Origin: Promethearchaeota archaeon
Lineage (GTDB): Archaea; Asgardarchaeota; Lokiarchaeia; Sigyniarchaeales; SOKP01
Length of the DNA stretch: 64,000 nucleotides
Assembly (NCBI GenBank): GCA_030599585.1
Contig: JAUVNS010000003.1
Span: 160,001-224,000, forward strand
Reading direction: 5' to 3'
This document shows, in pieces, positions 12,001 through 15,000 of the stretch. The position numbers were made by a program. Within the stretch, counting starts at the first letter, position 1. Every line of letters starts with the position of its first letter.

Positions 12001-15000
12001 ATAATATTTTTTGATTATTGTCAAAATTTTATCACTCTAATTATTTGTCTATTAAATAATATTAGAACGGATACTTAAGAATTGATCCCTTGATAAGTGG
12101 CTTTTACAAAGTCTAGGGTTGAACTTACCCTAACCAAAATGTATTTTTTAAATCGATGCTTCTTTATATTATATCTACAAAAACAAGATTTTTGATTTGA
12201 TATGGCTGATAAAATTAGTAATGAACAGAAGCTTAACGGAAAAGAAAGAGAGATTTTATTTCAATCTATGGATGTGATCCTTGGAAATCTTCAAGACAAT
12301 ATGGAACATTTAAGCAAACCCAAACATTTTTCACATACTCAGAAATTTATCGATCTGGTCTATGATGGGTTAATAAAGAAGAGAAAATTCTTCTTATTAG
12401 CAAGTGGGCGCTCTGCTTTTATTTTACAGTGCTTTGCGACAAGACTAGTCCACCTTGGAGCAAATGTTTATATGGTTACTAATCTGGGGTCAATACCTGC
12501 ACTAACAAATGAGGATGTTTTAATAGTTCTTTCTGGATCGGGAACAACATCGATCGTGGTAAGTCTTCTCAAAAATTACGTGAATACCGCTAAACCTTTT
12601 GGTATAATTTCAATTACATCCCATCCTGAGACTATTATAGGGAGAGTAGCTGATATTACTATAAAGCTGAAGGGCCGTACTAAAAGAGATAAGATTGATC
12701 TTCACGACGATACCGCAATTCTTACCCCTGAAGGAACTATGTTTGAAATAGCTGCTTTCGTATATTTGGATGCTATAATCGCTGAGCTTGCAATTAAAAT
12801 GGGAAAAACTAACGAAGACATGCTAAGGAAGCACTCAGAGACTATTTAAACTACCTTTACTATACATTCTTTGTGCCCATTATAGTGTATTTACGAGAGT
12901 AGTCTTAGGACTAAAAATCGATGAGTAAATATCTCCCATGGGCACGCTTTATCTTAAATCTAATTGTTTTTTCTAGTTGTTGTTGAAAAGTAGAGCACCA
13001 ATAGCCCCACAATATTCTGAATTTTTTAAAAAAATAGCTTTTTTCCTTTTGATTTTACAGAGTAATGATAGAATCTGTTTTAATGGTTTATTCTCTAATA
13101 GAAATCCTCCACAAAAAACGATATTTTTCAGGTTATAATTTTCAGCCGTAAGAGTAGCAATCGTACCAATATTTTCTCCAATAATTCCAATCAGTGAACT
13201 AATTAAATCTTCTTCTTTTAACGATTTGATATCAAAATCTTTTTTAATCTTGCCTAAAGAAGCTGCTGTATATTCTCTAAATAATTTATCAACTCTGGTA
13301 TCTTCAATATCGTAAATGTCAGCTACTTTTAAATCAATGCTAAATCGATTTCCCTTACGAACTAGTTCAATAGCATCAAAATATTCACCCATATTAAATA
13401 ATAGTTTAATTAGTCCCATAAAGAAACCTCCTCCCATTGCAGATCCCCCCAAATGTTCAATCTTGTCCCCTTTCATGACCAATGAAGTCCCTGTACCTAA
13501 CGTGACAATAAGCGATGGAGGTAATGCTTTCTTCTTGTAAGATTCATGAAGAAATTCTAGCCCTACTATATTTGCTTCAAATTCGTTGATTAAGTTAGTA
13601 TTAATGCTGTTTGAATATTTTTTATAAAGCTTATAAGCTTTTCCACCGGTAAAATTAATCATATTAAATTTACTTTTATTTTCGTCAAGAAAATCCTCTA
13701 TTCCCTTAAAATTGGTCTCTCCTATTTTAAGGATAATTTCGTTATGTTTAAGATAAGAAATCTTCGTGAGACTTTGACCAATATCAATTCCAATTGTATC
13801 AGAGGGGATATTAAATTGCGTTTGTTCTAAGAGTATTTTTGTAGTGTTTTTCTCCAAATTCTAAAACAACTCCTAATATTTTAATAAAGATTTATTTGAT
13901 TATTTAATTTTAATATTTAGTAATGATTGAGAACTCTAAAGTTAATAGCACTGAAGTTGCTATAACCAAAAACGATAGTCCGGCTAAGGCTATAAACGAT
14001 GGAATTAAATTACTTGGTGGGATTTCAAGGTTTATTGGAAAAGAAGATAGTATTTTTATCAAAATTAATTTAAGAGCACCTAACGGCTTTCCTATTAATG
14101 TCAATATGGATTCCCTAAGAACATTAATTATATTGTGTAAGGATGCAGGAGCAAAAAAAATATATGTTGGGGGGTTTCCAGATTACGGTGTAAAAACCAG
14201 CACGCTTAATGACACATTAGGGCTCAAATCTTATTTAGAAAACCTTGGAGCAGTATTTATATCCTTGGATGATCCAGCAACATCTCACTTTAGTAGCATC
14301 GAAGTAAACGGAAAAAATATCGAATATCCAACAAGAGTGCTTGAATCGGATAAATTAATTATACTCAATCAAGTAAGCGTTGACCCCTTATTCAAATGCA
14401 CGCTTTCACTATTGAATTGTTATTCCTTAGCATCTTCTAATTCTCAGAAAATTGATAAGTTAGTTAGGAGTGGGAAAGATTATTTGTTATTAGATCAATA
14501 CAAGCAAGATTTATTATCAAATATTCTCGATGTTTTCACGATTAAAAAACCTTGTTTAGTTATAAACGACATGTTCTATTTCTTAGAAAGCGCCGGTCCC
14601 TTTATTTACAAGGATTCAAACTTAATTCGCACAGGCTTAGTAGTTAGTGGATTTGATGCGGTAGCAGTGGACTTAATCACAATAAATCTATTAAAAATTG
14701 ATTTATTAGATTGTGATATCCTCTTAGAAGCTAGAAATAGAAAATTAGGAATAACTAATGTTTCTAAAATTAATTTAAAAGGCGAAAGTCTTGATGATAA
14801 TAAGTTATCAGTTAATTTCACGGTTAATAAATTGAATGAAATTACGATTAATAACACATATCTGCAAACGGGAAGAATTTGTTCTGGATGCTTCAAAGAG
14901 GCGTATCATCTATTGAATTTTATGAAAACTCACATGACAAAAGATTTAAAGTACATAAGAAAACAGTCAGTGCTGATCGGTGAGAATCCTCTTGAACCCG

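What the first reader, a model, noticed from the sequence alone, without database searches (positions are those of the whole stretch)
12873..12945. Candidate ACA-less H/ACA-type guide RNA targeting LSU rRNA helix 69 (U1911)
Seen: an 8-bp lower stem, an internal loop with strands UAUAGU (12881-86) and CUCCC (12933-37), an 8-bp upper stem, a canonical K-turn (GA opposite GAU-GA) and an apical hairpin, with a TATA-like TTTAAA starting 28 nt upstream. Known: archaeal H/ACA guides have this order of elements and bind L7Ae at the K-turn; helix 69 reads GGGAG-U-A-ACUAU(G/A) in eukaryotes and GGGGGUAACUAU in many archaea. Inference: the pocket pairs GGGAG and ACUAU(A/G), leaving U1911 (E. coli numbering) plus one base unpaired, which is guide geometry. 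No ACA/ANA box follows the stem (GCUUU instead), so this would be a non-canonical guide (ACA-less guides are known from Pyrobaculum).
Basis: partly seen in the sequence, partly recalled or inferred. Interest (0 to 1): 0.8.

Follow-up and report, generated by a model that had tools for sequence, protein, structure and literature searches.

The report
Asgard pseudouridine guide lacking ACA box
This is a real, conserved small RNA gene of a Loki-type Asgard archaeon that most likely steers the pseudouridine-making enzyme to uridine 1911 of the ribosome; most relatives carry the textbook ACA tail, but this lineage and several others have lost it while keeping the rest of the RNA intact.

Summary
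Observation confirmed base for base. The hairpin (fold z -3.6) is intergenic. Its pocket pairs 5 + 6/7 Watson-Crick bases with the host's own 23S helix 69, leaving U1911 and A1912 free; the next-best site reaches 8 pairs, 3 of them G-U. A covariance model finds it, almost always single-copy, in 110/131 family genomes and in two other families of the order, with 14 of 19 pairs covarying. Cbf5, L7Ae, Nop10 and a weak Gar1 hit are present; no RluD-type enzyme was found.

The 'ACA-less' label needs refining. The family is canonical: 21 genus relatives have ACA at exactly 14 nt. This copy belongs to one 17-genome clade with CUU in that slot and an intact 9-bp lower stem, so it is not Pyrobaculum-type. 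At least 6 changes of ANA state are forced across the order. Two other H/ACA hairpins in the same genomes keep ACA, and the PUA domain is nearly unchanged, so the loss is specific to this guide. Haloferax mutants show that typical single-hairpin guides work without ACA. A discrete transcript and pseudouridine 1911 are not shown. The scan found this family before on other DNA.

The parts
12845..12850 (+). TATA-like hexamer, overlapping the stop codon of the upstream gene; putative own promoter
   Evidence: Sequence. In 76 homologues the upstream profile is A-rich at -34..-31 and almost free of G/C at -29..-23. Function inferred; the genome is 33% GC, so a single hexamer is weak evidence.
12872..12880 (+). 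Lower stem, 5' strand (8 bp from 12873, plus U12872 pairing with 12946)
   Evidence: Folds. 7 of 9 lower-stem pairs show two-sided changes in 41 homologues. U-G or U-A closing pair in 17/17 clade genomes.
12881..12886 (+). 5' guide strand UAUAGU; pairs with 23S nt 1913-1918 (a 7th pair if U12880 opens)
   Evidence: 6-7 bp or more with the G000 H69 in 79 of 80 homologues.
12887..12896 (+). Upper stem 5' strand (8 bp) plus the GA of the K-turn: a 10-layer 'GA stem'
   Evidence: A 10-bp GA stem marks productive guides (PMC4652768).
12897..12919 (+). K-turn canonical stem (2 bp) and variable apical hairpin (12900-04 / 12909-13)
   Evidence: G-C pair next to the kink invariant in 41/41; apex varies in length and sequence.
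12920..12932 (+). K-turn 3-nt bulge GAU, GA, and upper stem 3' strand
   Evidence: UGA invariant in the 41-sequence alignment. L7Ae binding inferred, not tested.
12933..12937 (+). 3' guide strand CUCCC; pairs with 23S nt 1906-1910
   Evidence: 5 Watson-Crick pairs in all 18 clade copies, against 4 in 46 of 51 ANA-bearing copies.
12938..12946 (+). Lower stem, 3' strand
12947..12951 (+). Tail where the ACA box should be: CUU at 14 nt from the pocket top (or GCU at 13), then U-rich; no ANA at 13-16
   Evidence: CUUU invariant in 17/17 clade genomes; ACA at 14 in the other 21 genus genomes.
12202..12849 (+). Upstream neighbour, SIS-domain protein (HxlB-like hexulose-phosphate isomerase); context only
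   Evidence: PF01380. The HxlB name is my inference. Synteny.
12973..13857 (-). Downstream convergent neighbour, Fumble-family (type II) pantothenate kinase; context only
   Evidence: PF03630, E 3.5e-44. Synteny.

Best explanation
A stand-alone, single-hairpin archaeal pseudouridylation guide of about 80 nt on the plus strand. L7Ae binds the K-turn, and Nop10, Cbf5 and Gar1 assemble on the stems (inferred from the known particle). The two pocket strands pair with 23S nt 1906-1910 and 1913-1918/19 of unfolded helix 69, so that U1911 enters the Cbf5 active site and A1912 stays unpaired, giving pseudouridine 1911. The pairing is shown in silico; the modification is inferred. The ancestral guide had ACA at 14 nt. 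The ancestor of a 17-genome clade lost one nucleotide from each side of the lower stem, gained a fifth pair in the 3' guide duplex, and ended with CUU in the ACA slot. The guide most likely still works. Its geometry is the typical one for which ACA is dispensable, so the lower stem, the K-turn clamp and a 12-bp target duplex would suffice. This would also explain why this guide has lost ACA repeatedly while other guides in the same genomes keep it.
For: Host H69 is the best target: 7+5 Watson-Crick pairs, next best 8 with 3 G-U. Pocket letters are near-invariant while the stems covary: 14/19 pairs and 75 cells with two-sided change, 0/500 shuffles as high, slid controls at most 50% paired against 89%. 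Found in 37/41 genus and 110/131 family genomes, and in families f2 and f4 where the hxlB and panK neighbours were not found in the fetched stretch. ACA at exactly 14 nt in 21 genus relatives. The ACA-less genomes form one clade (95/91) nested among ACA-bearing rows; at least 6 state changes are forced in the order. In the clade 57/73 positions are invariant against 4/20 upstream. Cbf5 over cut-off with catalytic GTLDP, Nop10 (97), L7Ae (77, just under cut-off), Gar1 (78, weak); no RluA/RluD-family match (96). ACA-to-UGU and ACA-deleted single-hairpin guides still work in Haloferax when UN is unpaired (PMC7075261). The 3' duplex matters most (PMC2377435).
Against: No discrete transcript is shown: the one RNA-library contig that covers the element runs on past it in both directions and comes from a related strain. 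Pseudouridine 1911 has not been mapped in any Asgard archaeon in the papers I found, and it is not among the S. islandicus sites. ACA mutation abolishes stable Cbf5 binding in gel shifts (PMC7075261). H69 is invariant in the 7 genomes checked, so guide-target covariation could not be tested. Other ACA-less lineages did not gain a longer 3' duplex (3-4 bp in g16 and f2), so 'compensation' is not general.
Confidence: 0.78

Rival explanations
1. Same ancestry, but without ACA the RNA no longer supports catalysis. It is kept as an L7Ae-bound chaperone that pairs with helix 69 during assembly, or it is in slow decay.
For: ACA loss removes stable Cbf5 binding in vitro (PMC7075261). The tail varies freely in several lineages.
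Against: The 10-layer GA stem, the exact UN gap and the 14-nt spacing are kept in all 18 copies, which only catalysis requires. 78% of positions are invariant across a clade whose Cbf5 proteins differ by up to 18%, which argues against decay. ACA-less mutants are active in Haloferax.
Confidence: 0.13
2. A transcript-end hairpin (terminator or stabiliser) for the convergent hxlB and panK genes, with a chance match to rRNA.
For: It lies between convergent stop codons, folds on both strands and is followed by U-rich sequence. One RNA contig joins it to the hxlB 3' end.
Against: The unpaired pocket letters are the most conserved part and match rRNA in guide geometry. The K-turn exists on the plus strand only. 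ACA sits at 14 nt in most orthologues. The element persists where these neighbours were not found nearby. No terminator-like site was called (bacterial consensus only).
Confidence: 0.03
3. The clade's Cbf5 has changed specificity and now reads the CUU tail in place of ACA.
For: CUUU is invariant in 17/17 genomes. Cbf5 has a fixed PUA change A285V and Ala in place of Val/Ile at 315.
Against: Both H/ACA hairpins of a second RNA keep ACA in all 12 clade genomes where it was read. 57 of 58 conserved N-terminal and PUA positions are retained. The other ACA-less lineages have A, S or G at 285, not V. UUU may simply be the terminator.
Confidence: 0.05

Closest known systems
Canonical single-hairpin archaeal box H/ACA sRNAs of the 10/5/9 fold (Pyrococcus Pab91 and Pab160/Pf9; S. 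islandicus sR115, sR435; PMC4652768, PMC2377435, PMC11077068)
   Same: Lower stem, bipartite pocket, 10-layer GA stem ending in a K-turn, unpaired UN target, 14 nt from pocket top to tail slot. Most orthologues also have the ACA box.
   Different: This copy has CUU, not ANA, in the slot. Its target, U1911, is not assigned to a guide in the archaeal papers I read. No Rfam match.
Atypical H/ACA-like guides of Pyrobaculum (sR203-sR210) and S. islandicus (sR109, sR136, sR148, sR563)
   Same: K-turn hairpin guide without an ACA box; shows that archaeal Cbf5 can work without ACA.
   Different: Those lack the lower stem; this RNA has a covarying 9-bp lower stem. The nearest natural precedent is one P. 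calidifontis sR201/sR202 motif with CCA in place of ANA (PMC4652768).
Engineered ACA-to-UGU and ACA-deleted stem-loops of Haloferax sR-h45 (PMC7075261)
   Same: Intact stems, typical UN geometry, no ACA; active in vivo and in vitro.
   Different: Laboratory mutants. The natural sR-h45 H69 hairpin targets 23S U1940/U1942 (E. coli 1915/1917, my own knowledge) and needs ACA.
Human SNORA23 (ACA23), guide for 28S-3737; E. coli RluD
   Same: Same predicted site. 3741 equals E. coli 1915 (PMC2794176), so 3737 (PMC6466398) equals 1911 by my inference. RluD makes pseudouridine 1911/1915/1917 in E. coli.
   Different: SNORA23 is a two-hairpin eukaryotic snoRNA and RluD a stand-alone protein. No homology was tested or shown; yeast has no 1911 entry in the PMC2794176 table.

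Membership tests
Canonical archaeal box H/ACA sRNA | Lower stem of 7-9 bp | tested here: met
   8-9 bp, with covariation
Canonical archaeal box H/ACA sRNA | Bipartite pocket complementary to an rRNA site, leaving UN unpaired | tested here: met
   5 + 6/7 Watson-Crick pairs around 23S U1911 of the host
Canonical archaeal box H/ACA sRNA | K-turn or K-loop at the end of a 10-layer GA stem | tested here: met
   8 bp plus tandem GA; 3-nt bulge; GA and UGA invariant. Sequence and structure only.
Canonical archaeal box H/ACA sRNA | ANA (ACA) box 14-15 nt from the pocket top | tested here: not met
   CUU at 14 and no ANA at 13-16 in this copy and its clade; met in most orthologues
Canonical archaeal box H/ACA sRNA | Core proteins Cbf5, L7Ae, Nop10, Gar1 in the genome | tested here: met
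   L7Ae scored 127 bits against a cut-off of 134.6; Gar1 27.5 against 29.3, a weak hit.
Canonical archaeal box H/ACA sRNA | Discrete stable transcript | tested here: inconclusive
   Only assembled contigs from related strains; no ends or strand
Canonical archaeal box H/ACA sRNA | Binds Cbf5 and L7Ae and directs pseudouridine formation | not testable with these tools
   Needs reconstitution or rRNA mapping
Pyrobaculum/Sulfolobus atypical H/ACA-like guides | ACA box absent or degenerate | tested here: met
Pyrobaculum/Sulfolobus atypical H/ACA-like guides | Lower stem absent or truncated | tested here: not met
   Full lower stem; mean duplex energy -15.6 kcal/mol in no-ANA copies against -14.9 in ANA copies
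Any Rfam 15 family | Score at or above gathering threshold | tested here: not met
   No hit at gathering; only chance minus-strand hits at E 0.77-3

The most novel reading that the evidence does not exclude
A third natural form of archaeal pseudouridylation guide, with an intact lower stem and no ANA, that arose several times from one canonical Lokiarchaeia family. In this clade the invariant CUU tail, together with small PUA changes (A285V, V315A), would be an actively recognised replacement for ACA rather than a neutral loss.
Probability: 0.08. Interest if true: 0.65.

Novelty: new variant of a known kind. Interest (0 to 1): 0.4.

Why it matters
It gives a testable prediction that Loki-type Asgard ribosomes carry pseudouridine 1911, a helix 69 site modified by a protein in E. 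coli and by a snoRNA in humans. I found no archaeal guide for it in the papers read. The family is also a natural experiment on the ACA box. Matched orthologues with and without ACA share one target and nearly one Cbf5, so the laboratory claim that ACA is dispensable for typical single-hairpin guides can be tested with sequences that evolution kept. It also warns that searches requiring ACA will miss real guides. It is not a new mechanism.

Tried and rejected
1. Rfam: no family at gathering or useful E-value.
2. An ACA at 11 nt (inside the lower stem, in 8 of the 18 clade copies) as a shifted box: rejected. It is too close, base-paired, and reads ACG in the other 10 including this genome.
3. 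Minus-strand reading: it folds and is followed by AAAGA, but has no K-turn and its loop strands are identical to rRNA, not complementary.
4. Expression: RNA-library contigs cover hxlB and, once, the element (X4 record 8, 12822-12965). Contigs give no strand or ends, and the lack of cover over panK proves nothing.
5. Guide-target covariation: not testable, H69 identical in 7 genomes.
6. A loose pattern search in family f2 gave as many control hits as real ones; discarded.
7. Beyond the order: one marginal hit (G163, E 0.04, no K-turn GA), rejected. Not found in the other sampled Asgard families, under strict filters.
8. G133 (E 0.014) and both G039 hits (E 0.07) not counted as members.
9. The promoter/terminator scan uses bacterial consensus and was uninformative.
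10. The tRNA part of the target scan was incomplete (21 records) and 5S rRNA was not included.
11. The C/D target search was faulty and not used.
12. The paper on Cbf5-ACA contacts was not held, so I could not say whether residues 285 and 315 touch ACA.
13. Descriptor scans ranked a real hairpin (C40 hairpin A) low, so they are not a census of guides.

Full report
Setting. The window is G000:C34:160001-224000, a 4.85-Mb, 33% GC genome. The element lies in the 123-nt gap between a SIS-domain gene (12202-12849, plus) and a Fumble-family pantothenate kinase (12973-13857, minus), which converge.

Observation. The stretch folds with z -3.61 and no shuffle does as well. Rfam has nothing for it. One refinement: U12872 can pair with G12946, and this pair is U-G in 10 and U-A in 7 of the 17 closest genomes. 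The lower stem is therefore best drawn with 9 bp. The fold is then the '10/5/9' type of PMC4652768 (10-layer GA stem, 5-nt 3' guide, 9-bp lower stem), with CUU where ACA should be, 14 nt from the pocket top.

Target. The host 23S gene is on contig C3, and its helix 69 reads GGGAG-U-A-ACUAUAA (U1911 at C3:67971). The pocket pairs 5 bases before the U and 6 after the UA gap, or 7 if the top pair of the lower stem opens, all Watson-Crick. The next-best site in 16S, 23S and a partial tRNA set reaches 8 pairs with 3 G-U. The exact 12-nt pattern occurs twice in the genome, once being this site. In two genome-wide descriptor scans for K-turn hairpins with rRNA-complementary pockets, this element ranked first: among 22 filtered candidates, and among 8,410 by lower-stem energy.

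Conservation. A DNA search found homologues in the genus. A covariance model then found it in 37 of 41 genus genomes and 110 of 131 family genomes, single-copy except G056. A second model added members in families f2 and f4 of the order and nothing credible in other sampled Asgard families. On 41 diverse sequences, 89% of cells pair and 14 of 19 pairs show two-sided changes. No shuffle reaches this, and slid controls pair at most 50%. The structure was drawn from these sequences and kin are not independent, so these numbers are support, not probabilities. The pocket strands and kink letters are near-invariant, and the apex is free. Synteny with both neighbours holds in most of the family; they were not found in the stretches fetched for f2 and f4. 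Upstream of 76 homologues there is an A-rich block at -34..-31 and a G/C-poor block at -29..-23, as expected for BRE and TATA of an own promoter (inference).

The ACA box. This is where the picture changes. Of 39 copies in the genus, 21 have ACA exactly 14 nt from the pocket top; 18 copies in 17 genomes, including this one, have no ANA at 13-16. On a Cbf5 tree of 75 genomes these 17 form one clade (95/91). Its sister row bears ACA, and it is nested among ACA-bearing lineages (one gene, midpoint root, backbone partly unresolved). Relative to its sisters the clade lost one nucleotide on each side of the lower stem and turned CUCCA into CUCCC, which adds a fifth pair to the 3' guide duplex (5 bp in 18/18, against 4 bp in 46 of 51 ANA-bearing copies). 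ANA is also missing at 13-15 in some members of g14, g16, f2 and f4. The tree needs 8 changes of state, at least 6 on well-supported branches; one row counted there, G099, has ACA at 12. These other losses did not gain a longer 3' duplex, apart from G027 (6 bp) and two g14 rows with wobble pairs. Compensation is thus a possibility for this clade only.

Is the loss system-wide? No. The scan led to a second RNA at G000:C40:45777-46082, matched in 32 of 41 genus relatives. It has two clear H/ACA hairpins, predicted to target 23S U2496 (6+4 pairs) and, less securely, U1921 (4+4). Both keep ACA in all 28 genomes read, 12 of them in the ACA-less clade. Cbf5 is intact. Of 58 N-terminal and PUA positions conserved in ACA-bearing genomes, 57 are kept in the clade. 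The exception is A285V, which other ACA-less lineages do not share; position 315 is Ala against Val/Ile. Nop10, L7Ae and a weak Gar1 hit are present. No RluA/RluD-family synthase was found, so no obvious protein-only source of this modification is on hand.

Mechanism. Shown here: fold, covariation, target complementarity, protein genes, and the history of the tail. Inferred: transcription, particle assembly and catalysis. The literature makes activity without ACA plausible. In Haloferax, single stem-loop guides with ACA changed to UGU or deleted still made pseudouridine when the target UN was unpaired and the spacing typical, though stable Cbf5 binding was lost (PMC7075261). Sulfolobus guides lacking both ACA and lower stem are active, even with Pyrococcus proteins (PMC11077068). 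The 3' guide duplex is the more important one (PMC2377435). This guide has typical geometry and a 12-bp perfect duplex, which fits relaxed selection on its tail. Within the clade 57 of 73 positions are invariant against 4 of 20 upstream, which speaks for continued function. The invariant CUUU after the stem may be a terminator; a new protein contact is not excluded.

Expression. Public RNA runs held only related strains, as contigs. One contig covers the element and runs on past both ends. This neither shows nor refutes a discrete small RNA.

Comparison. It works like a canonical single-hairpin archaeal H/ACA guide and descends from such guides, but this copy fails the ACA test. It is not a Pyrobaculum-type guide, because it keeps the lower stem; the nearest natural precedent is one P. 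calidifontis motif with CCA (PMC4652768). The site is modified in E. coli by RluD (PMC2794176). In humans H69 has pseudouridines at 3727, 3731 and 3733 (PMC2875026). SNORA23 guides 28S-3737 in the other numbering (PMC6466398), which I map to 1911. My paper searches found no description of Asgard H/ACA guides, within a library that lacks most subscription papers. Earlier notes of this scan describe a Loki-type U1911 guide on other DNA and an ACA-less copy in another genome. The phylogenetic account of the loss was not among the notes returned.

Verdict. Real, conserved guide; target U1911 very likely; ACA absent in this clade as a derived, recurrent, guide-specific loss. New variant of a known kind; interest 0.4.

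Noticed in passing
G000:C40:45777-46082 plus strand (L140:1278-1583), outside the window: Conserved ~305-nt intergenic RNA with no Rfam match. It has a 5' UGAUGA C-box-like motif, an H/ACA hairpin predicted for 23S U2496 (6+4 pairs, ACA at 14-15), a CUGA-like motif, a middle K-turn-like hairpin with no clear target, an H/ACA hairpin predicted for U1921 (4+4, ACA at 16-18) and a terminal CUGA. The C/D-like motifs enclose the H/ACA hairpins, either as K-turn helices or as a composite C/D-H/ACA RNA. Matched in 32 of 41 genus relatives.
   Followed up: partly
L072-L076, L078 (genus g17 homologues): The guide ends in AAA or AUA at 14 nt and is followed at once by a conserved small GC-rich hairpin (GGGAGCC ... 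GGCUCC), unlike other genera. Possibly a 3' stabiliser or the relic of a second domain.
   Followed up: no
window 12845-12850: In the 7-genome sub-clade around G000 the TATA-like hexamer overlaps the stop codon of the upstream gene; in sister genomes the spacer is longer.
   Followed up: partly
L031:1477-2487 minus strand (Cbf5): Clade-specific pair of PUA-domain changes, A285V and V/I315A, possibly a reciprocal packing swap.
   Followed up: partly
window 12973-13857 minus strand: Fumble-family (type II, eukaryote-like) pantothenate kinase, syntenic with the guide in most of the family.
   Followed up: no
G000:C3 (16S near 14850-16345, 23S near 65760-69100): 16S and 23S rRNA genes are unlinked, about 50 kb apart on one contig.
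   Followed up: no
G000:C40:48317-48463 minus strand: The weak Gar1 hit lies about 2.2 kb from the multi-hairpin RNA on C40.
   Followed up: no
L050 and L108 (G056): Two slightly different copies of the guide with the same neighbours in one assembly, probably strain mixture.
   Followed up: no
window 9440-9658 plus; 8196-8813 minus; 39699-39773 plus: A 72-aa histone-fold-like ORF with a short lysine-rich N-terminus and a proteasome beta-like ORF (names by inspection); tRNA-Trp.
   Followed up: no
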